Part shown: in pieces, positions 1,028 to 21,362 of the stretch
How positions within the stretch are numbered: position 1 is the stretch's first letter
How the letters are laid out: each line of letters opens with the position of its first letter
DNA from: Acidobacteriota bacterium
GTDB lineage: Bacteria; Acidobacteriota; Terriglobia; UBA7540
Direction: 5' to 3'
Assembly: GCA_021838785.1 (NCBI GenBank)
Contig: JAKCCV010000004.1
Span: 83,537-147,536, forward strand
DNA length: 64,000 bases
Notes under the pieces: generated by a model
What the model saw: the letters and a program-made list of their open reading frames with translations, nothing else
The model's database searches: none
What the model was told of the DNA's origin: nothing
Translations under genes and position numbers: made by a program

Positions 1028-1564
1028 TCACCGGGGATGGCGGACAAGCAAACCCAACACGGGCAGCGCCATGGCGACAAAGAAGAGGATGCCAAGCGAC
1101 CAGTTCACCCACTTCTTCCCAGGATGGTTGACCCAGGCGCAAAGCAGCGCCGAGAGCAGCAGGATTTGCGGCACGACTTCAATCCAGCCTCGGAGCTGCC
1201 AGAGGACCGGCGTGGGAGTGTAGATCATGCCTTCAACCGACCCTGCCGCCGGGCCGAACGTGGACAGGATGCCCAGCGCCACCAGCATCCAACTCATCAG
1301 CAGCCAGCCGTTCTTTCGGCCAAACAAACTCGCGCGGAGCGGATAAAAGACGAGAGCAAAGATCAGCCCGCGAATCGGTTGGAAAAGTGGCCCCGCCATG
1401 ACCCACGGGCTGGTAAAGGGCCTCATTCCAGATCCGGGGCGGGACATGAGCGCGGCGTAGTGAAGAAAATGAGCGGCTAGCGCTCCCATCAGAAAATAGG
1501 TTAGCGTGTGGCTGACCACCGTCTTGGCCGCGAGAGGCCAAAACCGAACGGGAGGGCTCTCCAT
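1028..1564 (-). CDS. hypothetical polytopic membrane protein
   Basis: ORF with several hydrophobic helices (LTYFLMGALAAHFL, GWLLMSWMLVALGIL, LGILFFVAMALPVLGLL). Internal ATG at 1564 is preceded by AAGGA. No family recognised. Confidence 0.55.
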   Translation of the reverse strand: MESPPVRFWPLAAKTVVSHTLTYFLMGALAAHFLHYAALMSRPGSGMRPFTSPWVMAGPLFQPIRGLIFALVFYPLRASLFGRKNGWLLMSWMLVALGILSTFGPAAGSVEGMIYTPTPVLWQLRGWIEVVPQILLLSALLCAWVNHPGKKWVNWSLGILFFVAMALPVLGLLVRHPR

Positions 1565-1758
1565 TGAGATTGTCCTTTTCGGGAAATTCAAGCCGCCGAT
1601 CAACCTCTCGTCAAAATCGCCGGTTACGCTGGGACACTGTCTTCAAGCGTGACCCGGTGGGCGCAAATCTTCGCCGTGTTGGATGCAAGACCCCGTGCCC
1701 GGCACCCGCGCTCAATCCGCTTGAAACCGTCTCCGGCCAACCGCGACGGGGTTGACAA

Positions 1759-3243
1759 TCAAGGCTGGTTTTCGACCAACGTCGTTTTGGGATGAACCGG
1801 CAACAGCAAGGGCGGGCGGGCCGGCTGCGTAAAATCAAAATCACGCATCAGATTGCCGAGCATCGGACTATTTTCCCGCACGTAAGGCCTGGAATCGGGT
1901 CGGCCGTCGGTCGCGGGGTTCAGCCGCTGGCCGTGCAGAAAGATGTCTTCAATAAATTTGAGGTAGGCGTCGAAACTGAGCGGCTGATGGTCGATATATC
2001 CTCGCTTGGCGTAAGGACTAATCACCAGCCCCGGCACTCGGATGCCCCACCCGAGCGAATCCACGCGGGGAGGAACCACGTGGTCGTAAAACCCTCCCCA
2101 GTCGTCCCACGTGATAAAGATGGCGGTGCTCTTCCAGTCGGGGCTTTCCATCGCGGCATTCACTATCTTCGTCACGTAGGATTGCCCCACACTCACCTTG
2201 GCGGGAGGGTGCTCGCTATCTTCGCCATTGGGGGAAAACCATGCTACGGATGGAAGGGTTCCATCTTTGGCGGCCACAAAAAAGCGGCTAAGGTCCTCGA
2301 TATTGGCTGTTTGATGATCCTCATGGACATCCGTAAAGCCGGGCAGCACGTTCCAGATGACGGGGACACGCTTCACGCTCTCTTTGGCTTCCCTGAGCTT
2401 AGAGGCAAAGGGAGCGCTTTTCCCGACCTTTTTAGCTCCCTTGCTGCGGGGATGCCGTGGCAGCCACCCACCGTGGTCCAGGTAGTAAACCCAGCTCACA
2501 TGGTCTTTGTGCAACAGCCAGGTGATTTCTGTCCAGGCGAACGGTGTAGGATCTTTGCGAGTCCTATTCCTGGGCATAAGAGCGCTTACGCAGCTCATGG
2601 GGTTGTTGACTTGGCTGCAATTAGCTGCCCAGGCGGAAACAAGAAATAAGTGTGATGGGAAGCTCCAGGAGTGAACCGACTCAAACATATGATCCTGGAG
2701 CACAAAATGTTTCGCATAGGCCCAGTAGTTGGGGATATCTCCCGCGTCATGGTATCCCATGACTTGATCAGACTCTTCTGGGTCAGTGGGATGTTGGCAG
2801 TTCTGGCGAGGCCAAGCAAGAGGATTGAAACCGAAGTATCCCGCTGCCTGTACTTCTCTGATAAATCCATTCATCGCGCCGTTCGCGATGTCCGCCAAAG
2901 ACGCTTCCGCGGCGTGCGGGCCGCCGCAGTTCACATCGTCATGGTCGAGATAAGGTTTCACGCATTGGCCCGTCTTGGGATCGGGAACGCAGACCGTGGG
3001 CACGCCGTCCCGCATGGGAATACCGTCCGCCCCAGGGTAAGTGCCAAAGTAGGAATCAAAGGAGCGATTTTCCTGGAAAATGATAATGACGTGTTGGATG
3101 GGAAAATCTTTTCGGGGAGCTACGTCGGCCCTTGGGTTCGGCGCGCCGCCTTGAGCCATGCTGGCCGTGGCCGCGCTCAGGCTCATCAAAACGGCCAGTC
3201 CCACCCAAAGTCCATGAGAACAGCCGCAACCCATTTTTGCCAT
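1759..3243 (-). CDS. phosphoesterase family protein (phospholipase C / AcpA acid phosphatase type)
   Basis: Hallmark [24 protein letters not shown] near the N-terminus. Signal peptide [32 protein letters not shown] follows the ATG at 3243. The longer 649-aa ORF is probably upstream read-through. Confidence 0.85.
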
Positions 3244-3941
3244 TGCATCACCCCTTGTGCTAAACGTTGCTTCGTGAACGGCCCCATGCTGGCACCCTCG
3301 TTGGGCAATGTCAAGCCGTTCGCTGCGAAGCGGACAGGCTGCGATTGCCGCGCCTTGCCCAGAAGTTTTGGCCATGCTCCGGCTAAAGATGGGCGCGCGG
3401 CCGACATTCTGCAATCGTTGACAAACCCCGCAACGGATCGCGCCAACCGACCGCTCGGTCGGTGGCTGCCAACACCGTAAAAGACCATCCCCCCGCGCGT
3501 CAATTCGAGCAGCTTCTGCACGATTTGAGCCATCCGCGGCCCTACCGCCGTCGAAAGGAAAATTGACGGCCAACCACCAACTCACTGAATCGGCTTTGGT
3601 TAACTCACAGTATGCGAACGCTTGACTGATTGGCAACCAAGTTGCTCCCGTCGTAGTGGGCGCTGTGGCAGGGGTGGCGGTTCGCACCCCGTGATAGAAT
3701 CGGCTCACAACGCAGGCCGCTCACTCACCGTCGAGCAGCGTGTGCCGATAAATACTCCGTGTGACTTGATGCCCGGACGGTGGTCGCCGGAGCGCAGCTC
3801 TTGAAGTGGAGTCATTATTATTCCAAAATTGGTCAATGGACTGGGCAGAACGGCAGATTTAATCTCGGATCGCTTCAGCACGGCCCGCGAGGTTTAGAAA
3901 GCGGGGAGTTGAAAAATCATTTTAGAGGGAGGATAAGGAAT

Positions 3942-4493
3942 ATGACAAAGCGACTAGGAAAGATGCTTGTCGGGTTAGGAATTTCAATGTGCCTGGCCGG
4001 CTTGCCGCTCTTCGCGCAGCGAGGCGGCGGAGCCGGCCACGGCATGGGCGGCGGCATGGGCATGGGGCAGCATCCCGCCGGCGGTTTTGGGCAAGAGCAT
4101 AGCAACATGCCGCGCATGGGCGGCGAGCGGCAAAATCCAATGAACCACAGCCTCTCGCACCACTCGAACCTCGGCATGAATTCGCCCACCACCCTGCTGT
4201 CACAAAACACCAAGCTCTCGTCGCGTCTCCAATCGCTGCTGCCGGCGGGCACCAACGTGCAGGAGGCGGCGAGCGGTTTCAAGAATCTTGGGCTGTTCGT
4301 GGCGGCGGTTCACGTCTCTCACAACCTGGGCATTCCGTTTGATGAGTTGAAGTCCACCATGCTCTCGAACGGCGATAACCTCGGCAAAGCGATTCACACG
4401 TTGAATCCGCACTTGACCAAAAAGCAAGTGAAGTCAAACGTTAAGAAAGCTCGCCGAGAGGCCAGCCACGACCTCAAGGAAGCTCGCTCCTAG
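3942..4493 (+). CDS. hypothetical secreted protein, Gly/Met/His-rich N-terminal region
   Basis: ATG at 3942 preceded by GAGGGAGG. Signal peptide MTKRLGKMLVGLGISMCLAGLPLFAQ followed by GGGAGHGMGGGMGMGQHPAGG. Confidence 0.6.
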   Translation: MTKRLGKMLVGLGISMCLAGLPLFAQRGGGAGHGMGGGMGMGQHPAGGFGQEHSNMPRMGGERQNPMNHSLSHHSNLGMNSPTTLLSQNTKLSSRLQSLLPAGTNVQEAASGFKNLGLFVAAVHVSHNLGIPFDELKSTMLSNGDNLGKAIHTLNPHLTKKQVKSNVKKARREASHDLKEARS

Positions 4494-4772
4494 GCTCGGG
4501 CGTTTGACCGGGGTGGAGCGCGATGCAACGTCTCCGCCCCGGCCTGTCATCGTTTCCGCGTCCCAGGCCACAGAGCCTTGGCGGTTTTCTCAGCCACGCT
4601 CGCGCGACGGCTCCTCCGGCCGCGACCCGAGCATTCCCACCCTTGGGAGGCGAGGCGGCCGCCGCCGCTTCTTCCTTCATTCCCGTCCCTTCCCCTGCGC
4701 CTTCTCACCCCAAACGTTGTATAATGCCAGCTAGCTCGAGTCCAAGACCGCAGGGGACGGCGAGGTGGATGC

Positions 4773-6338
<1,566 letters not shown>

Positions 6339-14437: not shown

Positions 14438-14803
14438 TTAGCCGCTCGAGGGTGACGGCGGGCCGAAGGACGCTATCGCGCTCGGCAACGAGTCATAGCG
14501 TTCAAACACCGTGCTCAGCCGGGTGATTTGCAGCAGGTCGTGGACTCGCCGCGTCAGATTCAGCAACTTCAAGTCGCCGCCCCGCTTGCGCACCGTGGTG
14601 TAGGCGGCGACCAGCGTGGAAAGGCCGGCGCTGTCAATGTAAGTGATTTCGCCCAAATCCAGCACGATTCGCAGCTGTCCGGCGCGCGCGCACTCGGAGA
14701 TTTTCTCGCGCAGCCCCTGGGTCTCTTCTCCGAGCGTGATGCGCCCTCGCGCGTCCAGCACCAGAACGTCGCCAATCATCTTCTCCACCAGGTAGAGGGT
14801 CAT
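14438..14803 (-). CDS. STAS-domain anti-sigma-factor antagonist (SpoIIAA/RsbV-like)
   Basis: MTLYLVEK...LDLGEITYIDSAGLSTLVAAY...GGDLKLLNL...V. ATG at 14803 preceded by GGAGGAGG. The annotated 325-aa ORF upstream of this point runs through a repeat and is not credible. Confidence 0.85.
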   Translation of the reverse strand: MTLYLVEKMIGDVLVLDARGRITLGEETQGLREKISECARAGQLRIVLDLGEITYIDSAGLSTLVAAYTTVRKRGGDLKLLNLTRRVHDLLQITRLSTVFERYDSLPSAIASFGPPSPSSG

Positions 14804-14936: not shown

Positions 14937-15223
14937 GTAGCGCAGAGGTTGCGCGTCGCAACCTCTGCGGCTCGTGCCGGTGCCCGCCGGAAAAAACCGC
15001 AGAGTTTCCGAACGCGTAACCCCGCGCGACGCAGGCGATCCATTGGCCGTTGGGCGAGACTGATGGGCGGCAGCAAGGCAGGTTCGTAATCTTTCGCTCC
15101 GCGCCGCCTGGCCCGGTTAAAATCCTCCCGTGCGGGGTCTCGATTTCCTCGGTTGCCTTTCGCCCTCAGGCTTCCTTCGTGCCCCCCACCATGACCGCTT
15201 CCCGCAGGTTCGCGCACGTGCCC
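14937..15223 (+). repeat. ~290-bp hairpin-headed repeat, copy A (full length)
   Basis: Aligns by eye over its whole length with 17854-18145, at roughly 90 percent identity. Begins with a perfect 13-bp stem, cgcagaggttgcg-cgt-cgcaacctctgcg (14941-14969). Confidence 0.85.
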
Positions 15224-15236
15224 GACGCGGCAGCAG

Positions 15237-15331
15237 GTAGCGCAGAGGTTGCGCGTCGCAACCTCTGCGGCTCGTGCCGGTGCCCGCCGGAAAAAACCGC
15301 AGAGTTTCACACTCCGCAACCGCGCGCGACG
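15237..15331 (+). repeat. ~290-bp repeat, copy B (head only, about 95 bp, tandem to copy A)
   Basis: Repeats the first ~95 bp of the element (hairpin plus ccgcagagtttc...cgcgcgacg), 13 bp after copy A ends. Confidence 0.85.
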
Positions 15332-15611
15332 TGCTGGGCCGTTCAACCCTTGCGCCCGTCGAGCTGGCCGCCGTCCATTCTTGGCCAAGCCTGACTGCCG
15401 CGGCCGACGCCACAAGCGCCGCAGAGCAGCGCCAACGACGCGCGCCTCTGCGCTGCGGGCTCAAAAGAAAAGTCTCCTGCACCTTCAAAAGAAAAAACCT
15501 CTTGAAGTCCAAGAGAGAATCTACCCGCTTCAGGCCGCGAAGATTTCCGCCGCCCCCGCACCACGCCGCGCTCTTTACAGCCGCCAAAGCTGAACATATA
15601 CTCGGTGAGAC

Positions 15612-16931
15612 ATGGGACACGCCGGGACAGAGCTGGGCGCGCCAGCGATCGGTGGGGAACGGAGCGAGGACACGTTCCGCACGCTCGCGGCGTTGCTTCG
15701 CCGAGACCTGGATTTTGGCTCCTCGGACAGCGGCTATGCGTCCCATGCCATCCACCCCTTCGCCGCAAAGTTCCCGCCGCAGATCCCGCGCTTATTCATC
15801 GAGGAGCTCACGCAGAGCGGGGATTCCGTCCTCGATCCGATGGCCGGTTCCGGCACAACCATCGTCGAGGCGCTCATGCTCAGGCGAGAGGCCTTTGGCT
15901 TTGATATTGACCCCTTAGCCGTCAGGTTGTGCACTGTGAAGACGACCTGGCTAGACCCTGTGGACCTCCAAAGGCGCTGTCTAGCGATCATCGAGGACGC
16001 GTTAGACATGGGGAAGTCGGGTTCGCACCTTCGCCGTGAACTTGAGACCCGCTACGACGCGGAGACCAGAAAGTTCATAGACTACTGGTTCCTCCCCGAG
16101 ACACAGTTGGAGCTTCTGGCCCTCGTGCTAGCTATTGAGAGGGTCAGCGAGCCAGCCCCGCGCGGCTTTTTCGAGTTGGTCCTGTCCTCGACCATCATCG
16201 CGAAAACAGGGGGGGTCTCGATGGCCCGCGACCTGGCCCATTCGAGACCCCACCGCGACCCAGCCAAGAACCCGCGCAACGCTATCACCGAATTCCGACT
16301 CAGGTCAGCAAAGGCGCTCAAGAAGTTTCAGAACCTCCCGCAGCGCGTGAAAAAGGTCTTCGTTGCGGAACGCGACGCAAGGAACCTGCCCCTGCCGACA
16401 GGCTCGATTGACCTCGTCGTGACATCTCCCCCCTATGCCAATGCGCTCGACTACATGCGGGCGCACAAGTTCAGCCTGGCGTGGCTGGGATACCCCCTCC
16501 GAGCCCTGAGCGCCTTGCGGGGAAGGTACATCGGGAGCGAAAACCTCCACGGCGGTCCCACCGGCGAACTGCCGAGGAGGTCCGCCGCCGCCGTGCGCGC
16601 ACTCGCGGAGAGGGACGCAAGGAAGGCGAAGGTCTTGGCGAAGTACCTCGGCGAAATGAGAGATGCGCTCGCCGAAACGAACCGCGTCCTGAAGCCCGGC
16701 AAGGGGGCGGTCCTCGTTGTCGGGCCGTCCATAATGCGGGGAGTGCCTATCCTCACACACGAGTACCTCGCAGAAATCGGGAGCTCCGTGGGATTCCGAC
16801 TCGCCGGAGTCCAGAAACGAAGAATTGACCGCGACCGCAGAATGCTCCCTGTAAGCCTCGACCGTAACGGCCACTCGACGATCGAGCAGCGGATGCACGA
16901 GGAGTACGTGGTCGGGCTGGTCAAGGAATAA
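15612..16931 (+). CDS. type II DNA methyltransferase, N4-cytosine/N6-adenine (SPPY) class
   Basis: AdoMet motif I VLDPMAGSGTTIVEA, then catalytic motif IV DLVVTSPPYANALDY. Also HAIHPFAAKFPPQIP and RVLKPGKGAVLVVG. Confidence 0.85.
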   Translation: MGHAGTELGAPAIGGERSEDTFRTLAALLRRDLDFGSSDSGYASHAIHPFAAKFPPQIPRLFIEELTQSGDSVLDPMAGSGTTIVEALMLRREAFGFDIDPLAVRLCTVKTTWLDPVDLQRRCLAIIEDALDMGKSGSHLRRELETRYDAETRKFIDYWFLPETQLELLALVLAIERVSEPAPRGFFELVLSSTIIAKTGGVSMARDLAHSRPHRDPAKNPRNAITEFRLRSAKALKKFQNLPQRVKKVFVAERDARNLPLPTGSIDLVVTSPPYANALDYMRAHKFSLAWLGYPLRALSALRGRYIGSENLHGGPTGELPRRSAAAVRALAERDARKAKVLAKYLGEMRDALAETNRVLKPGKGAVLVVGPSIMRGVPILTHEYLAEIGSSVGFRLAGVQKRRIDRDRRMLPVSLDRNGHSTIEQRMHEEYVVGLVKE

Positions 16932-16946
16932 AGGCGGCCCCGCGCG

Positions 16947-17834
16947 ATGCCTGCCACAATCCGTGACCAAAAGCTGTCCGAGCTGAGGACGCAGTACCAC
17001 GCGAAGATACTCTCAAAACTTCTGGGCAGACGCGGCCCCGCGGGAGCATTCTCGAACGCCGACTCGGGGAGCAAGGCGAGTAAGGAAATCGCTGAGCGCA
17101 TGGCCCAAAGACTTTCCGCCCAAACGCACAACAGCCCGTGCAGGAAGCTTCCGAGCGAGCAGACCCTTGGCAATGTTTTCGCAAGGCTTACGGAGGAATT
17201 TTTGGAAGCCGCCTTCCGACGCCTACACCACCTCCGCCCCGGAGACTGGGTGTTTTCCACGAGCCAGGATACCAAGGGCATCAGCAGACACCATCAGTAT
17301 GAGCACTTGGCGCAACTTGAAGACCTTTTAAGGCAACATCCTGAACTGAGGTCCACACTCGGGGGCGACTACCTGATTACCCCCGACATCACGGTGTCGC
17401 GCCGACCCGTGAGCGACCAAGAAATCAACCGCCGCGGGGACTTTGTGGACGGTTCTGAGCAGCTCGCCAACCACGCCCCGCTGCGCGAGGCGGTGAACAA
17501 GACCACAATCCTCCATGCAAGCATTTCGTGCAAGTGGACCATTCGGAGCGACCGGGCGCAAAACACTCGCACGGAGGCACTCAACCTGATCAGGAACCGA
17601 AAAGGGAAGGTTCCGATTGTCGCCGCGGTGACCTTCGAGCCACTGCCGACCCGGCTTGCCTCCATCGCGCTGGGCACGGGCGACCTGGACTGCACTTACC
17701 ACGGCGCTCTCAACGAGCTCGCCGCGGCAGTGGACGGGACGGGAAACCCGGATCAGAGGGAAATGCTCGACACGCTCGTCCACGGTAGGCGGCTCCGCGA
17801 CATCAGCGACCTGCCGTTCGATCTCGCTACCTAG
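16947..17834 (+). CDS. type II restriction endonuclease, NgoMIV/Cfr10I-like family
   Basis: From memory it aligns along the length of R.NgoMIV: LRPGDW, GGDYLITPDITVSR, LHASISCKWTIRSDRAQN, LNLIRNRKG, IALGTGDLDCTYH, GRRLRDISDLPFDLA. Starts 15 nt after the methyltransferase stop. Confidence 0.8.
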   Translation: MPATIRDQKLSELRTQYHAKILSKLLGRRGPAGAFSNADSGSKASKEIAERMAQRLSAQTHNSPCRKLPSEQTLGNVFARLTEEFLEAAFRRLHHLRPGDWVFSTSQDTKGISRHHQYEHLAQLEDLLRQHPELRSTLGGDYLITPDITVSRRPVSDQEINRRGDFVDGSEQLANHAPLREAVNKTTILHASISCKWTIRSDRAQNTRTEALNLIRNRKGKVPIVAAVTFEPLPTRLASIALGTGDLDCTYHGALNELAAAVDGTGNPDQREMLDTLVHGRRLRDISDLPFDLAT

Positions 17835-17853
17835 CGCATCGTGCAGTTGGCAG

Positions 17854-18145
17854 GTAACACAGAGGTTGCGCGGTGCAACCTCTGCGGCTCGTGCCGGCGC
17901 CCGCCGGAAGGACCCGCAGAGTTTCACACTCCGCAACCCCCGCGCGACGCAGGCGATCCATTGGCCGTCGGGCGAGACTGATGGGCGGCAGCAAGGCAGG
18001 TTCGTAATCTTTCGCTCCGCGCCGCCTGGCCCAGTTAAAATCCTCTCGTGCGGGGCTCTCGATTTCCTCGGTTGCCTTTCGCCGTCGGACTTCCTTCGTG
18101 CCCTTCCCCACCATGACTGCTTCCCGCGGGTTTGCGCACGTGCCC
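17854..18145 (+). repeat. ~290-bp hairpin-headed repeat, copy C (full length)
   Basis: Same orientation as copy A. Together A/B and C bracket the R-M gene pair. Confidence 0.85.
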
Positions 18146-18199
18146 AAGGCCGCAGAAATTGAACTTGGACCACCCCCGGTGGCGCCGGCGAGTCAAGCT

Positions 18200-18442
18200 C
18201 CGCCGGCCGGGGCTGCGAGGCGAGCCGACGGTTAGGGATCGTTCGAGGGTTGGAGCGCCCAGCGGTTTTTCCTGAGAAAGTCTTCCACCAAGCCCATGTC
18301 GGAGGAACCGCACAGAATCAACCGGCACAGCTCATCCGCTTGCCCGACGCGCGGATCCACCTTGGCGGCTTGCTGATAAACCTCCCGAGCTTGGCGCGGG
18401 TGTTTCTCTTTCCACAGGGCGATGGCTTGGAGCACGAGCGCG
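18200..18442. repeat. 243-bp direct repeat D1 (duplicate of the TPR gene 3' end)
   Basis: Near-identical to 19783-20024. By eye there are three substitutions and one 1-nt indel. Confidence 0.9.
18232..18442 (-). pseudogene. 3' fragment of the TPR-repeat gene (duplicate of the last ~70 codons of 19814-20929)
   Basis: Translation LVLQAIALWKEKHPRQAREVYQQAAKVDPRVGQADELCRLILCGSSDMGLVEDFLRKNRWALQPSNDP is identical to the C-terminus of the intact TPR protein. It has no N-terminal part. Confidence 0.85.
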
Positions 18443-18487: not shown

Positions 18488-19279
18488 CTACTTGCGCTCG
18501 GCGATCCCCTCCCGCACCAACCCTTCGTCGAGCCGGCTGAGAGCGTTTCCCGGGACCGCAAGATCAGCACTCTGTTCCAGTATCTTAGTGCTTTCGGAGG
18601 ACCACTTGGTAGAAATGACATCGTACACCAATCCGACCTTGAGCTTAGGATTTGCCTGCCTAATATCGCCAGCCTTGAATCCCCACGCCTCCGCCGTAAG
18701 GTGCGCGTTTGATCCTGATAGTATCGCAATGGCAATGCCAGGTCTGCCGTTGGGCGGAATCAGGAAATCAACCGAATGTTTCTCTATCCTCCCTCGTACC
18801 TTGTCCCGTTCCCTGTAAGGAAGACTCCTCCTGCCCAGCACGTCTTTAACCTCTCGCACCAAATCCTCTTCCTTCGCTAGGAATTTTGGCCTATACGTAA
18901 GATAGACATCGCCGACCGTCTTGGCCGCCTCCACAAATTTCTGGATACTTAATCCCAATTCGTCGCGCCTCGACTCCAAGATCATGTAGTTTTCTTTGAA
19001 GGTTAGCCCGTAAGACTTCGCAAGCTCTTCTAGCCTCGACACCGTGCTGGCTTGAACTTCATGCCCTGCGTTGCGGAGTTCCTCTATCGTCCTTGCCATA
19101 TCCGAAACTATGTACTGGTCATCAGAGACGCGCGTCACGGCGACCTCGATGCGGTGATCCGCCGAGTAATGAAAAGGAAAGGAAATGAGGACACTCCCGC
19201 CCTCTAAGGGCTCAGCCTCGATGAGGCCGCGATAGCTTTGCAAATAGGTAGAAAGCACCGAATCAAGGAGGGTGTTCAT
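18488..19279 (-). CDS. DUF1828/DUF1829-like two-domain protein (uncharacterised)
   Basis: The N-terminal half (ISFPFHYSADHRIEVAVTRVSDDQYIVSDMARTIEELRNAG...) and the C-terminal half (VRGRIEKHSVDFLIPPNGRPGIAIAILSG...WGFKAGDI) fit the patterns I associate with DUF1828 and DUF1829. No HMM was run. Confidence 0.55.
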   Translation of the reverse strand: MNTLLDSVLSTYLQSYRGLIEAEPLEGGSVLISFPFHYSADHRIEVAVTRVSDDQYIVSDMARTIEELRNAGHEVQASTVSRLEELAKSYGLTFKENYMILESRRDELGLSIQKFVEAAKTVGDVYLTYRPKFLAKEEDLVREVKDVLGRRSLPYRERDKVRGRIEKHSVDFLIPPNGRPGIAIAILSGSNAHLTAEAWGFKAGDIRQANPKLKVGLVYDVISTKWSSESTKILEQSADLAVPGNALSRLDEGLVREGIAERK

Positions 19280-19740
19280 TCTAACCTCAATTCATCCTGG
19301 ATTTGTTCGACCTCAATGTTCCATTTGTCGAGCCCCCACTGAAACACTCCCCGCAGGTCGGCCCCTCCAACTCGGGGTCGCGCAGGTATTACCCGTGCGT
19401 CAGCATCCTCATCGTTCCAAATGTGCTCGTGCCACCCGCGCACCACCGTCCCGTCCGGATTGTCGTGCCTGATTTCATAATCTAGGCCCCGTATTCGGCA
19501 TCCGTGCCAAAGTAGGGAACACGACGCCTTGCCGCGCGGCAGGCCAGGTAAACGCCTTTTCACGCGAGCCTTTACTATCAGCCCTCCGGTCACGGCCCGG
19601 GGATCGTCCCTCATTCTAACCTCCGCTTCGATTATTGACCATCCGCTCTCTTCTACAACCGCTGGAATCGCCAAGATCTGCTTCCTCGAGCCGACAAGAT
19701 AATCAGCCTCGCTCTCCGTGAATTTGCGCCGCTGCCCCAT
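19276..19740 (-). CDS. hypothetical protein, no family recognised (His-rich block YEIRHDNPDGTVVRGWHEHIW)
   Basis: 154-aa ORF. Its stop overlaps the start of the downstream DUF1828/1829-like gene (ATGA, 19276-19279). Same strand as the TPR gene just upstream. Confidence 0.55.
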   Translation of the reverse strand: MGQRRKFTESEADYLVGSRKQILAIPAVVEESGWSIIEAEVRMRDDPRAVTGGLIVKARVKRRLPGLPRGKASCSLLWHGCRIRGLDYEIRHDNPDGTVVRGWHEHIWNDEDADARVIPARPRVGGADLRGVFQWGLDKWNIEVEQIQDELRLE

Positions 19741-19782: not shown

Positions 19783-20024
19783 CCGCCGGCCGGGGCGCGA
19801 GGCGAGCCGACGGTTAGGGGTCGTTCGAGGGTTGGAGCGCCCAGCGGTTTTTTCTGAGAAAGTCTTCCACCAAGCCCATGTCGGAGGAACCGCACAGAAT
19901 CAACCGGCACAGCTCATCCGCTTGCCCGACGCGCGGGTCCACCTTGGCGGCTTGCTGATAAACCTCCCGAGCTTGGCGCGGGTGTTTCTCTTTCCACAGG
20001 GCGATGGCTTGGAGCACGAGCGCG
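19783..20024. repeat. 242-bp direct repeat D2 (native 3' end of the TPR gene)
   Basis: Partner of D1 at 18200-18442. Confidence 0.9.
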
Positions 20025-20929
20025 GCGGCGGAGCGTGGGTTGGCCGCCAACGCCTCGGCGCACTCCTCGAGCGCGGCGTTCAGGTGTCCCTGCTTCCAAA
20101 ACACCAGCGCCATCAGGTGATGTCCCGCCGCGTCCTGGGGATGGTCGGCGGTCAGCGACGAAGCCAGCTTCTGCGCCGCCGCCACGTCGCCTTGACGCAG
20201 CAGCGCCAGGCCCAGCTCCGCTTGCGCCGCCGCAAATTCGGGTTGCGCGGCGACCACCTGTTGCAGCATCTTCGTGGCCTTCGCCGCTTGCCCCGCTCTC
20301 GCCAACAGCTTGGCCAACTCAAATTCCGCCTGCCAGTCGCTCGGATTTAACGACAGCGCTTTCTCGAGAAGTTGTCGAGCCTCGGCGCCCTTGCCGGCGC
20401 GCAGCTCCAGGCGAGCCAGCGGCACGTAGGCCGCTTCCAACGTGGGAGCAACTCGCAGGGCCTGGGTAAAATCTTCCGCCGCTTCGCGCTCGCGATGCTC
20501 CGCCAGGGAAATTTCTCCCAGCCCGAAATAGGCCACCCCGCTTTTGGGATTCAAACTTAGCGCGGCCTTCCATTGCCGTTGAGCGCCCGCCTCATCGCCG
20601 GTTTTGAGCAGCGCCAGGCCGATGGCAGTGCGCGCCGACGCCTGCTCGGCGGGCGAAGTGGCCAGGGAAAGCGCCTGTCGGGCCTCTGTCAAAGCGCGGC
20701 GGGGATGATGCCTGGCAAGTTCCGCGTTCGCCAGGGCCAGCCGCAAGGAGAAATCCCGCGGATGCGCCTCGACCGCTTTTTGAATCGCCTCGAGCGACGA
20801 ATGGGAAGACGAGCTACCGCCCTGCGGCGCGGCGCGGCATGGCACGACGGCCACCCACGCCACAAGCCACAGCCACGCGAGCGCGCCCCATCCGCCGTGA
20901 CAACCGCGCGAACCTAGGCCCGGCGTCAT
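19814..20929 (-). CDS. tetratricopeptide (TPR) repeat protein, secreted or lipoprotein-like
   Basis: Multiple 34-aa TPR units (AYFGLGEISLAEHREREAAEDFTQALRVAP etc.). Signal-like GALAWLWLVAWVAVVPCRAAP. The ATG at 20929 was chosen because it lies 5 nt after the upstream stop; ATGs at 20965 and 21001 are also possible. Confidence 0.8.
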   Translation of the reverse strand: MTPGLGSRGCHGGWGALAWLWLVAWVAVVPCRAAPQGGSSSSHSSLEAIQKAVEAHPRDFSLRLALANAELARHHPRRALTEARQALSLATSPAEQASARTAIGLALLKTGDEAGAQRQWKAALSLNPKSGVAYFGLGEISLAEHREREAAEDFTQALRVAPTLEAAYVPLARLELRAGKGAEARQLLEKALSLNPSDWQAEFELAKLLARAGQAAKATKMLQQVVAAQPEFAAAQAELGLALLRQGDVAAAQKLASSLTADHPQDAAGHHLMALVFWKQGHLNAALEECAEALAANPRSAAALVLQAIALWKEKHPRQAREVYQQAAKVDPRVGQADELCRLILCGSSDMGLVEDFLRKNRWALQPSNDP

Positions 20930-20933
20930 CCCC

Positions 20934-21362
20934 TCAATGCGCCAGACGAATCTGCTTGGGGTCATGGATGACGATCTCCGCTCGCCCGCCGTAACTGACA
21001 ATTTCGCCCAACACGGCGATTCTCCGCCCTTCGAGCGCGCTCAGGTTGCCGAAACGGGATCGGTCGGAAGCAAAAATCACCGTGCTGAACGGACACTGAC
21101 GATAGTCCCGGCAAAAATCCAAAAACGTGTTCCCTGACCGCGAAGTGAAAACCCGCAACACCCGGCCCGTCACGCATCCGTTCTCGCCCGTGTGGAGAGC
21201 GGCTTGGTGGAAGTCCACGCAGCCGCCCGTTCCATTGGACGCGCCGGTTGAAGGGACAAGCGACGACGCTCGACGACGCCCCAGCCGATACGCTACCAGG
21301 GCGCTGAGCGCCGCTGCCGTCACCACCACCAGCCCAACTGCGGCCCATTGCTTGCGCCCCAT
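20934..21362 (-). CDS. hypothetical membrane-anchored protein, possible OB-fold domain
   Basis: N-terminal TM helix WAAVGLVVVTAAALSALVAY followed by a small beta-rich domain (VTGRVLRVFTSRSGNTFLDF...RIAVLGEIVSYGGRAEIVI). Confidence 0.5.
   Translation of the reverse strand: MGRKQWAAVGLVVVTAAALSALVAYRLGRRRASSLVPSTGASNGTGGCVDFHQAALHTGENGCVTGRVLRVFTSRSGNTFLDFCRDYRQCPFSTVIFASDRSRFGNLSALEGRRIAVLGEIVSYGGRAEIVIHDPKQIRLAH

What the first reader, a model, noticed from the sequence alone, without database searches (positions are those of the whole stretch)
14937..18145. ~290-bp hairpin-headed repeat family flanks the R-M module in direct orientation
Copy A (14937-15223) and copy C (17854-18145) align over their full length, by eye at roughly 90 percent identity. 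Both are on the same strand, one on each side of the methyltransferase/endonuclease pair. A ~95-bp head-only copy B (15237-15331) follows A in tandem. Each head starts with a 10-13-bp perfect stem (cgcagaggttgcg / cgcaacctctgcg). A third copy of the arm sequence (ccgcagagttt) lies ~45 nt downstream, so two mutually exclusive hairpins can form. No credible ORF is specific to the element. It could be a MITE/PATE-like non-autonomous element, a REP-type recombination substrate, or a structured RNA. Direct repeats on both sides would let the R-M pair be gained or lost by homologous recombination.
Basis: seen in the sequence. Interest (0 to 1): 0.6.

Follow-up and report, generated by a model that had tools for sequence, protein, structure and literature searches.

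The report
REP/REPIN hairpin repeats flanking restriction genes
The repeats around this restriction-modification gene pair are copies and fragments of a known kind of small selfish hairpin element (REP/REPIN, normally spread by a RAYT transposase that this genome has lost), and in this Acidobacteria genome such elements sit next to phage-defence cassettes far more often than chance predicts.

Summary
A (14937-15233) and C (17854-18155) are 89.7% identical direct repeats on either side of an NgoMIV-type R-M pair. The unit was mis-defined, though. The genome-wide family is a ~225-bp element with inverted ends (GGTAGCGCAGAGG...CCTCTGCGCTACC). Each end is a GTAG-tagged palindrome, that is, a REP, so the unit is a REPIN. 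"Head-only" copy B (15234-15458) is a complete member. A and C are 5' REP fragments fused to an unrelated, locally duplicated 200-bp tail that contains an 84-bp scrap of a PD40 gene.

G000 has no RAYT. Its sister genomes have RAYTs flanked by sibling REPINs, and G000's copies look decayed. Sister genomes lack the R-M pair at this site: one has only 185 bp there, another has REPIN arrays with different cargo. A 69-nt IS110 end lies between B and the methyltransferase gene. No R-M-less allele with a single head+tail copy was found, so loss or gain by A x C recombination is plausible but not shown.

Across the genome, REP/REPINs bracket six defence loci; 5 of 14 methyltransferase loci are bracketed (0.7% expected).

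This is a known kind of element. Earlier follow-ups in this scan found this family, and REP-flanked R-M cassettes, on other DNA (e1-4419260, e1-4419261, e1-774834, e1-2995779).

The parts
14438..14803 (-). STAS-domain gene, conserved left border of the variable spacer
   Evidence: Pfam STAS 4.8e-17. Orthologous in G001, G002 and G003.
14937..15031 (+). Copy A head: 5' REP (GTAG + 13-bp stem, 14937-14969) plus the first ~60 nt of the REPIN spacer; a truncated REPIN
   Evidence: Orthologous to the STAS-adjacent REPIN of G002, which continues as a normal REPIN. Nucleotides 1-72 are identical to B.
15032..15233 (+). Tail A: non-REPIN DNA found only here and at C. Positions 15026-15109 are an 84-bp patch of a PD40 beta-propeller gene (minus strand, ...GGAERKITNLPCCRPSVSPNGQWIAC)
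   Evidence: BLAST hits only A, C and C31:1406-1489 at 93-94%. Translation. The G003 orthologue of the donor gene matches PD40 at 3e-23.
15234..15458 (+). Copy B: full-length ~225-bp REPIN (5' REP 15237-15269; inverted 3' REP ending ...CCTCTGCGCTGC at ~15456)
   Evidence: Aligns end to end with about 8 other G000 copies and 7 G002 copies. RNAalifold pairs the two ends.
15459..15526 (+). Remnant (last 69 nt) of the right end of an IS110-family element, with its terminus ...GAGAATCTACCC facing the M gene
   Evidence: 92.8% identical to C17:68760-68828, E 2e-20. The C17 copy encodes an IS110 transposase (NF033542, 201 bits).
15612..16931 (+). Type II DNA methyltransferase
   Evidence: Pfam N6_N4_Mtase 3e-18. 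PADLOC MTase_II 4e-36.
16947..17834 (+). NgoMIV-family restriction endonuclease
   Evidence: Pfam PF09015 1e-100. PADLOC REase_II 7e-75. Found in only 3 of 60 relatives and none of the same genus.
17854..17949 (+). Copy C head: decayed 5' REP (GTAA, 10-bp stem) plus spacer start. Its 3' part resembles B rather than A
   Evidence: head nt 73-95: B/C 91.7%, A/C 70.8%.
17950..18155 (+). Tail C: second copy of the tail, with the same head/tail junction as A
   Evidence: Tail A/C 92.2% (PD40 patch 97.6%, rest 88.5%). Longest identical run is 63 nt (15052-15114 = 17970-18032).
18200..18442 (+). Duplicated 3' end of the TPR gene (first copy), left flank of the PDC-M24 cassette
   Evidence: 98.4% identical to 19783-20024. 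Single copy in G001 and G002.
18488..19740 (-). Two-gene PDC-M24-like candidate defence cassette (DUF1828 + DUF6978)
   Evidence: Pfam. PADLOC PDC-M24B 7e-15 and PDC-M24A 6e-5.
19783..21001 (-). Intact TPR gene (19814-21001), conserved right border. Its last 243 bp are the second copy of the duplication

Best explanation
SHOWN: The 'hairpin head' is a REP, a GTAG tetranucleotide followed by an imperfect palindrome. This is the DNA hairpin that REP-associated tyrosine (HUH/Y1) transposases (RAYTs) bind and cut in single-stranded DNA. Two such REPs in inverted orientation about 140 nt apart form the real repeat unit, a ~225-bp REPIN. Copy B is a complete REPIN. A and C are 5' REP fragments joined at the same position (family nt 95/96) to a 200-bp piece of unrelated, patchwork DNA. 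They share that unique junction, so one was copied from the other. Their heads were later patched by gene conversion from neighbouring REPINs: A nt 1-72 equals B, and C nt 73-95 resembles B. The STAS-TPR spacer carries REPINs in three of the four genomes of the genus and holds different cargo in each. INFERRED: REPINs were multiplied by a RAYT acting in trans. G000 has lost its RAYT, so its roughly 40 REP/REPIN intervals are now immobile and decaying. The R-M pair, with an IS110 end-remnant upstream, entered between the 3' terminus of REPIN B and the 5' terminus of REP C. In other words, it went into a pre-existing REPIN array, and the flanking 'direct repeats' are array units rather than the ends of an R-M transposon. 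Today the repeats act as passive substrates for homologous recombination, which could delete or amplify the B + R-M segment. The same logic applies genome-wide, because REP/REPIN copies bracket six defence loci.
For: REP anatomy: GTAG + 13-bp stem. Four related stem classes differ by compensatory changes (AGAGG/CCTCT, TGAGG/CCTCA, AAAGG/CCTTT, CAAGG/CCTTG) while GTAGCGC stays invariant, and most classes carry one conserved stem mismatch. REPIN unit: full-length alignment of 15 copies with inverted termini. Tandem 193-bp arrays occur in G002. RAYTs: none in G000 by Pfam, NCBIfam or tblastn. 52 of 61 relatives have Y1 genes. The G002 and G001 RAYTs exceed the NF047646 cut-off and are flanked on both sides by sibling REPINs. 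The G002 RAYT locus is rearranged in G000. Decay: mean pairwise identity is 75% in G000 against 83% in G002, and both termini are intact in 1 of 8 against 4 of 7 copies. Lineage restriction: the exact REP occurs only in G000 and G002 among species-representative genomes. Locus history: G001 has STAS-185 bp-TPR, and G002 has REPIN-other cargo-3 REPINs-TPR. G003 has another REPIN upstream of STAS. Mosaic heads are quantified. G002 array units are 89-93% alike, the same range as A/C. Genome-wide: 6 of 14 MTase loci lie within 1.5 kb of a REP (P 6e-6) and 5 of 14 are bracketed (P 4e-8). The cassettes are annotated. The C34 3.65-kb defence block is bounded by REP termini and absent from G002. Literature: GTAG plus bulged hairpin (PMC3479197); REPIN definition and tandem arrays (PMC3337134); RAYT loss followed by REPIN decay (bioRxiv 10.1101/2022.05.22.493013).
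Against: No RAYT has been tied to this particular family. The sister-genome RAYTs are flanked by sibling families, not this one. The ~140-nt spacer is longer than in classical REPINs. Transposition has not been observed, and no clean single-REPIN filled/empty site was found, so the absence of target-site duplications is not established. G000 is a 38-contig assembly (98.45% complete), so a RAYT could hide in a gap. The order of events (tail duplication, R-M entry, IS110 insertion and deletion) cannot be resolved from four genomes. The MTase-REP statistic was computed after the pattern was seen and does not separate 'defence genes' from 'accessory DNA in general'. The C28 REPIN-bracketed R-M pair is shared by G000 and G002, so bracketing does not in itself mean recent mobility.
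Confidence: 0.72

Rival explanations
1. Insertion with long target duplication. A pre-existing single head+tail (297 bp) was duplicated when a REPIN-B + R-M segment (15234-17853) inserted without an integrase, as described for R-M units by Kobayashi's group. On this view A and C are the scar of the R-M insertion.
For: R and M both lie in a 2.6-kb insert flanked by direct repeats longer than 30 bp, with no integrase in the islet. A and C share a unique head/tail junction. The neighbouring PDC-M24 cassette shows a textbook case: a 243-bp duplication at 98.4%, single copy in G001 and G002. Criteria are taken from PMC2853133.
Against: No genome shows the required empty site with one head+tail. The tail is absent from G001-G003 and from two metagenome scans. 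The head is a multi-copy repeat and an IS110 remnant adjoins the cassette, both of which are exclusion criteria in PMC2853133. The A/C heads are mosaics. The 10% divergence is as large as the G000-G002 intergenic divergence.
Confidence: 0.2
2. REP-bounded cargo element. The R-M pair (and other defence cassettes) travel as units bounded by REP hairpins and are mobilised in trans by a RAYT, like IS200/IS605 ends around cargo (PATE-like), or are exchanged between strains using REPINs as portable homology.
For: GTAG hairpins at B and C lie on the same strand around the R-M pair. The C34 3.65-kb block ends in a 5' REP and an inverted 3' REP and is absent as a whole from G002. Cargo breakpoints fall exactly at REP termini at C9 and at G002:C150. 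Six defence loci are bracketed.
Against: No cassette was seen at two different loci with the same REP ends. C lacks a 3' REP and ends in the tail. R-M homologues in other genera share no flanks. Nested insertion into a seed REPIN explains C34 equally well. The C28 cassette is syntenic in G000 and G002.
Confidence: 0.12
3. A classical MITE derived from a DDE-transposase insertion sequence (terminal inverted repeats plus target-site duplication).
For: 13-17-bp terminal inverted repeats and a length of about 225 bp.
Against: The termini are GTAG-tagged palindromes typical of REPs. No parent IS with these ends exists in G000. No target-site duplication is visible at inspected junctions. RAYTs flanked by sibling elements exist in the genus.
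Confidence: 0.03
4. A structured regulatory RNA (riboswitch-like or attenuator) with two alternative hairpins.
For: Both hairpins can form in more than 92% of alignment cells. Some copies lie just after stop codons.
Against: No Rfam match at E up to 1. The covariation term is about zero and does not exceed the shuffles. Copies occur in both orientations and in tandem arrays in unrelated contexts.
Confidence: 0.04

Closest known systems
REP / BIME / REPIN elements with their RAYT (TnpA_REP): E. coli REPs, Pseudomonas fluorescens SBW25 REPINs (PMC3479197, PMC3337134, PMC3116915)
   Same: 5' GTAG tag followed by an imperfect palindrome with a conserved mismatch. Inverted REP doublets. Tandem arrays. 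Tens of copies restricted to one lineage. Single RAYT genes flanked by REPINs in sister genomes. A decayed population where the RAYT is missing.
   Different: The spacer between the two REPs is about 140 nt (34-110 in SBW25), and the two REPs differ in their inner stems. The host is an Acidobacteria MAG. No RAYT has been assigned to this exact family. The copies cluster at defence cassettes, whereas Pseudomonas REPs mark core regions and mobile DNA lies in 'REP deserts' (PMC3390384).
Insertion of R-M units with long target duplication (Nobusato et al. 2000; Furuta et al. 2010, PMC2853133)
   Same: An R-M pair under 20 kb flanked by long direct repeats, without an integrase. An adjacent cassette in the same islet fits the model fully.
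   Different: For the R-M pair itself the repeat does not align to a single-copy empty site in relatives. Part of the repeat is a multi-copy element and an IS remnant is present. By Furuta's scheme it falls under 'substitution' or 'chance insertion between repeated sequences'.
Neisseria dRS3/NIME intergenic repeat arrays and minimal mobile elements (PMC3898611)
   Same: Intergenic arrays of small repeats flank variable gene cassettes between conserved genes. The content differs between strains, and the repeats are proposed to promote exchange by recombination.
   Different: A different repeat family and a different associated enzyme (a phage integrase for dRS3, against RAYT here). No natural-transformation uptake sequences are known here.
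IS110/IS1111-family elements that insert at REP sequences (my own knowledge: for example IS621 in E. coli and ISPpu9/10 in P. putida)
   Same: The full IS110 copy on C17 abuts a REPIN 3' terminus. IS110 fragments are fused to REP/REPIN fragments on C25 and beside REPIN B in the window.
   Different: Only a 69-nt end remnant is left at this locus. Targeting of REP ends by this IS is inferred from three junctions and not demonstrated.

Membership tests
REP / REPIN (RAYT-dependent) | Short imperfect palindrome preceded by a conserved 5' GTAG (or GGAG) tetranucleotide | tested here: met
   GTAG + CGCAGAGGTTGCG/CGCAACCTCTGCG in A and B. 50 of 1295 GTAGCG sites are followed by a stem, against 0.2-0.4% in controls. 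Sibling classes keep one conserved stem mismatch.
REP / REPIN (RAYT-dependent) | [quoted passage not shown] | tested here: met
   Full-length copies begin GGTAGCGCAGAGG and end CCTCTGCGCTACC. The consensus fold pairs the two ends. In one G002 copy both ends changed in concert (TACAAGCGC...GCGCTTGTA).
REP / REPIN (RAYT-dependent) | Many dispersed, mostly extragenic copies, often in tandem arrays | tested here: met
   40 REP/REPIN intervals of at least 36 bp in G000. Arrays at G002:C54 and G000 C38:122.9-125.2 kb. Extragenic position was checked only at about 8 loci.
REP / REPIN (RAYT-dependent) | A cognate RAYT gene in the genome, typically flanked by its own REPs | tested here: inconclusive
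   Absent from G000. Present in G001 and G002 (NF047646 above cut-off) and flanked by sibling REPIN families. None has been linked to this exact family.
REP / REPIN (RAYT-dependent) | Binding and cleavage of the REP by the RAYT; excision or transposition | not testable with these tools
   Needs biochemistry or population sequencing.
Insertion with long target duplication (R-M) | R and M in an insert under 20 kb, flanked by direct repeats longer than 30 bp | tested here: met
   The insert is about 2.6 kb and the repeats are 297/302 bp.
Insertion with long target duplication (R-M) | The repeat aligns to a single-copy sequence at an empty site in a related genome | tested here: not met
   G001 has neither head nor tail, and G002 has heads but no tail. 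No other allele turned up in metagenomes or public assemblies.
Insertion with long target duplication (R-M) | The repeat is unique in the genome and no other mobile element is involved | tested here: not met
   The head is multi-copy. An IS110 end remnant lies at 15459-15526.
DDE-type MITE | Target-site duplication and a related autonomous IS with the same terminal repeats | tested here: not met
   No autonomous copy was found. No duplication is seen at the junctions, although no clean single-element empty site was available.
Known structured RNA family | A match to a curated covariance model, or covariation supporting a fold | tested here: not met
   Rfam has no match at E up to 1. Covariation does not exceed the controls.

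The most novel reading that the evidence does not exclude
REPIN termini act as integrase-free landing pads, or as portable homology, for phage-defence cassettes. Defence genes are captured at REP hairpins, perhaps at RAYT-made or hairpin-induced breaks, and then sit in REP-bounded blocks. These blocks can be exchanged between strains or even mobilised by a RAYT in trans. A 'selfish' REPIN population would then organise the defence islets of the genome, the opposite of the 'REP desert' rule in Pseudomonas.
Probability: 0.22. Interest if true: 0.7.

Novelty: new member of a known kind. Interest (0 to 1): 0.38.

Why it matters
On its own the finding is ordinary: a lineage-specific REP/REPIN family, orphaned by loss of its transposase, whose copies happen to flank an acquired R-M pair. 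It corrects a tempting misreading, because the repeats are not the ends of an R-M transposon. What may matter is the genome-wide pattern. In this small genome about a third of all DNA-methyltransferase loci, plus two candidate-defence pairs, are bracketed by these repeats. One 3.65-kb defence block is bounded exactly by REP termini and is missing from a sister genome. Other follow-ups in this scan met REP-flanked R-M cassettes in unrelated phyla. If the association holds under an unbiased test, REP/REPIN arrays would join integrase hotspots as organisers of defence islands, and this would give RAYT/REPIN systems a possible host-level role.

Tried and rejected
1. Rfam scan of 13.5-21 kb at E up to 1 gave nothing.
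3. DDE-MITE reading: no parent IS and no target-site duplication.
4. Two metagenome-contig scans (tail-specific 26-mer; STAS-anchor 25-mer) returned no hits.
5. Exact look-up of the STAS protein found only assemblies identical to the window, so no alternative allele.
7. R-M homologues in G050, G046 and G005 share the genes only, not the flanks.
8. GCCGGC (NgoMIV site) is not specifically avoided (observed/expected 0.87, like other GC-rich palindromes), and the cassette's GC content equals the genome's, so neither gives a dating signal.
9. I first read GGGCT at 15454-15458 and 18209-18213 as a 5-bp target duplication of a 2.75-kb block. The left junction turned out to be a REPIN/IS110-fragment deletion junction, so this stays ambiguous.
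10. I asked whether the tail is a deletion derivative of the C31 'PD40 gene + REPIN' arrangement. The orientation is wrong and only 84 bp match.
Full report
OBSERVATION. The repeats exist as described. A (14937-15233) and C (17854-18155) align at 89.7% over 302 columns on the + strand, on either side of a two-gene cassette. B (15237-15331) repeats the first 95 nt at 92.6%. The cassette is a type II R-M pair: M at 15612-16931 (N6_N4_Mtase; PADLOC MTase_II) and R at 16947-17834 (NgoMIV family, 1e-100; PADLOC REase_II 7e-75). NCBI and ENA assemblies of the same organism are 100% identical over 16.4 and 8.7 kb. A Logan unitig breaks at 14966, inside the first hairpin, as expected for a dispersed repeat.

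WHAT THE FAMILY REALLY IS. BLAST and nhmmer against the whole 3.42-Mb assembly show that only the 95-nt head is dispersed, at about 20 loci. The ~200-nt tail occurs only at A and C. Extending the query to the right of B shows that B continues to about 15458. It aligns end to end with about eight other copies in G000 and many in the same-genus genome G002. The true unit is therefore ~225 bp, beginning GGTAGCGCAGAGG and ending CCTCTGCGCTACC. Each end is a GTAG tetranucleotide followed by an imperfect palindrome:

- 5' end: GTAG-CGCAGAGGTTGCG-cgt-CGCAACCTCTGCG
- 3' end, read on the other strand: GTAG-CGCAGAGGCGCGC-gtcgttg-GCGCTCCTCTGCG

A census of GTAGCG sites finds a stem of at least 8 bp immediately after 3.9% of them, against 0.2-0.4% for three control hexamers. 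About 37 of these hairpins fall into four related classes in which GTAGCGC is invariant. The stems differ by compensatory changes (AGAGG/CCTCT, TGAGG/CCTCA, AAAGG/CCTTT, CAAGG/CCTTG), and most carry one conserved mismatch. This is the anatomy of REPs, and inverted doublets of REPs are REPINs (PMC3479197, PMC3337134). Copy B is a complete REPIN. A and C are REP 'singlets' with part of the spacer.

THE TRANSPOSASE. G000 (98.45% complete) has no Y1/RAYT gene by Pfam PF01797, by NCBIfam NF047646, or by tblastn with sister RAYTs. In contrast, 52 of 61 relatives have Y1 genes. In G002 a 174-aa protein scores 113 bits on NF047646 (cut-off 80), carries HWH and YIHFNPVRAG...WPWSS motifs, and is flanked on both sides by clusters of a sibling REPIN family (GGTAGCGCTGAGG...CCTTTGCGCTACC). 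In G001 a RAYT (99 bits) is flanked on both sides by 100-nt REPINs (GTAGCGCAGACC...GGTCTGCGGC...GCGCTACC). The flanks of the G002 RAYT locus correspond to G000 C17:70070 and C38:5944, which are unlinked in G000. An IS110-family element sits at the C17 breakpoint. G000's full-length copies are more diverged than G002's (mean 75% against 83%), and only 1 of 8 keeps both termini, against 4 of 7. This matches the reported decay of REPIN populations after RAYT loss. The exact 5' REP occurs only in G000 and G002 ('MAG: Acidobacteria bacterium YP1.bin18') among 185,579 species representatives.

THE TAIL. On the minus strand, 15026-15109 (and 17944-18027) read GGAERKITNLPCCRPSVSPNGQWIAC. They are 93-94% identical at the DNA level to an internal 84-bp piece of an intact PD40 beta-propeller gene on C31. 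That gene is itself followed by a REPIN. The remaining ~115 nt of the tail match nothing. The short tail hits in distant genomes are simply the conserved SPDGxWIA coding motif. The tail is therefore patchwork DNA and not part of the element. Because A and C share the identical head/tail junction, they have a single origin. By segment the identities are:

- head nt 1-72: A = B 100%, A/C 88.9%
- head nt 73-95: B/C 91.7%, A/C 70.8%
- tail: 92.2%

A's head carries the variant seen in G002's STAS-adjacent REPIN. The heads are therefore gene-conversion mosaics.

THE LOCUS IN RELATIVES. In G001 the STAS and TPR genes are 185 bp apart, with no REPIN and no cargo. G002 (94% identical flanks) has, in order: STAS, a REPIN truncated at about nt 170, a methyltransferase C-terminal remnant, a weak PBECR2-like gene with an unknown partner, three tandem 193-bp REPIN units, and the TPR stop codon. 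It has no R-M and no tail. G003 has a different short REPIN upstream of STAS. The NgoMIV-type enzyme occurs in only 3 of 60 relatives and in none of the genus, and homologues share no flanking DNA. The spacer is thus a REPIN-colonised site with variable cargo. G002's array units are 89-93% alike, the same range as A/C.

AN IS110 SCAR. The 69 nt immediately right of REPIN B (15459-15526) are 92.8% identical to the right end of the IS110-family element on C17. The IS terminus points at the M gene, 85 nt away. The C17 copy abuts a REPIN 3' end, and another IS fragment is fused to a truncated REPIN on C25. The R-M pair thus lies between the 3' terminus of a REPIN (plus the IS scar) and the 5' terminus of REP C, which starts 19 nt after the R stop codon.

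ORIGIN OF THE A/C REPEAT (INFERENCE). I favour the view that A, B and C are units of a REPIN array, one variant unit (head+tail) having been duplicated locally, and that cargo entered the array. The main rival is Kobayashi-type insertion with long target duplication. It clearly applies to the neighbouring PDC-M24 cassette: a 243-bp duplication of the TPR 3' end at 98.4%, single copy in G001 and G002. For the R-M pair, however, the defining empty site is missing, the repeat is partly multi-copy, and an IS remnant is present (for the criteria).

GENOME-WIDE PATTERN. Closely spaced REP/REPIN pairs elsewhere in G000 also bracket defence genes:

- C28: type II MTase + REase. This cassette is shared with G002.
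- C38: REase + MTase + an MmeI fragment.
- C9: an Eco57I-MTase/PstI-REase fusion, and a ParA + RelA/SpoT-like set.
- C34: DUF3800 + type II MTase.
- C25: PDC-S19 + PDC-S54.

Of 14 DNA-methyltransferase loci, 6 lie within 1.5 kb of a REP (3.7% expected; P 6e-6). Five are bracketed within 2.5 kb on both sides (0.7% expected; P 4e-8). This test is post hoc and is not controlled for accessory DNA in general. The 3.65-kb C34 block is absent from G002, where the flanks (95% identical) are 16 bp apart. Its outer ends are a 5' REP and an inverted 3' REP. At C9, synteny with G002 ends exactly at a REP 3' terminus, and different cargo follows in each genome. This is the opposite of the 'REP desert' rule in Pseudomonas and resembles the Neisseria NIME/dRS3 arrays.

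RELATION TO EARLIER NOTES. The scan had already met this same family around an R-M operon in another Acidobacteria genome (e1-4419260, e1-4419261) and REP-flanked R-M cassettes in other phyla (e1-774834, e1-2995779). Those notes reached the same classification. I derived mine independently before reading them.

VERDICT. The 290-bp 'unit' is a local composite. The repeats are not the ends of an R-M transposon. Gain or loss of the R-M pair by recombination between them is plausible but not shown. The statistical association of REPs with defence cassettes is the only part that might repay further work.

Noticed in passing
G000 C34:100369-104022 (L072 ~1470-5123) against G002:C32 (L076 1390-1407): A 3.65-kb block (REP fragment, REPIN, DUF3800 gene, REPIN, 148-aa ORF, type II MTase, MTase fragment, 3' REP) is missing from G002, whose flanks are 16 bp apart at 95% identity. 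The block's ends are a 5' REP and an inverted 3' REP.
   Followed up: partly
G000 C17:68528-70261 (L028) and G002:C207 (L052/L056): G002 has a RAYT flanked by REPIN clusters. At the orthologous left flank G000 has the REPIN followed by a full IS110-family element instead, and the right flank lies on another contig (C38:5944). The IS right end (...ATCTACCCC) and REPIN 3' termini (...GCGCTACCCC) share CTACCCC, which suggests the IS targets REPIN ends.
   Followed up: partly
whole genome G000: GTCGAC is almost absent (25 sites, observed/expected 0.05) and CTGCAG is depleted (0.54). This suggests long-standing SalI-like and PstI-like restriction pressure. A PstI/BsuBI-type REase fused to an Eco57I-type MTase is encoded at C9:274034-276547.
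   Followed up: no
G002 L025 4496-4720 (G002:C218): One REPIN copy has both termini changed in concert (TACAAGCGCAGAGG...CCTCTGCGCTTGTA instead of GGTAGCGC...GCGCTACC), as if one end had templated the other.
   Followed up: no
G000 C38:122896-125238; C12:487-806 and 2665-2984: There is a tandem array of at least four ~270-bp units of the sibling REPIN family on C38. On C12 a 2.18-kb direct duplication has units that each begin with a REPIN and enclose a UvrD-like helicase fragment plus an unknown gene.
   Followed up: no
G002 L021 2971-4243 (G002:C54): At the same STAS-TPR hotspot G002 carries a remnant of a methyltransferase C-terminus (...EIDNLVYEPYGITDEERKIIEG), a 109-aa weak PBECR2-type nuclease and a 214-aa unknown partner. 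This may be a toxin-antitoxin-like pair.
   Followed up: partly
G002 L026 (G002:C6) against G000 C28:17417 and C25:125857: A synteny break between G000 and G002 lies in a REPIN cluster, consistent with REPIN-mediated rearrangement.
   Followed up: no
window 15527-15545 against C17 ~70058-70040 (minus strand): The sequence after the IS110 end remnant (GCTTCAGGCCGCGAAG) resembles the sequence that follows the REPIN in front of the full IS on C17 (GCTTTCAGGCGAAGG). This may be a right-end/left-end junction of the IS, or chance.
   Followed up: no
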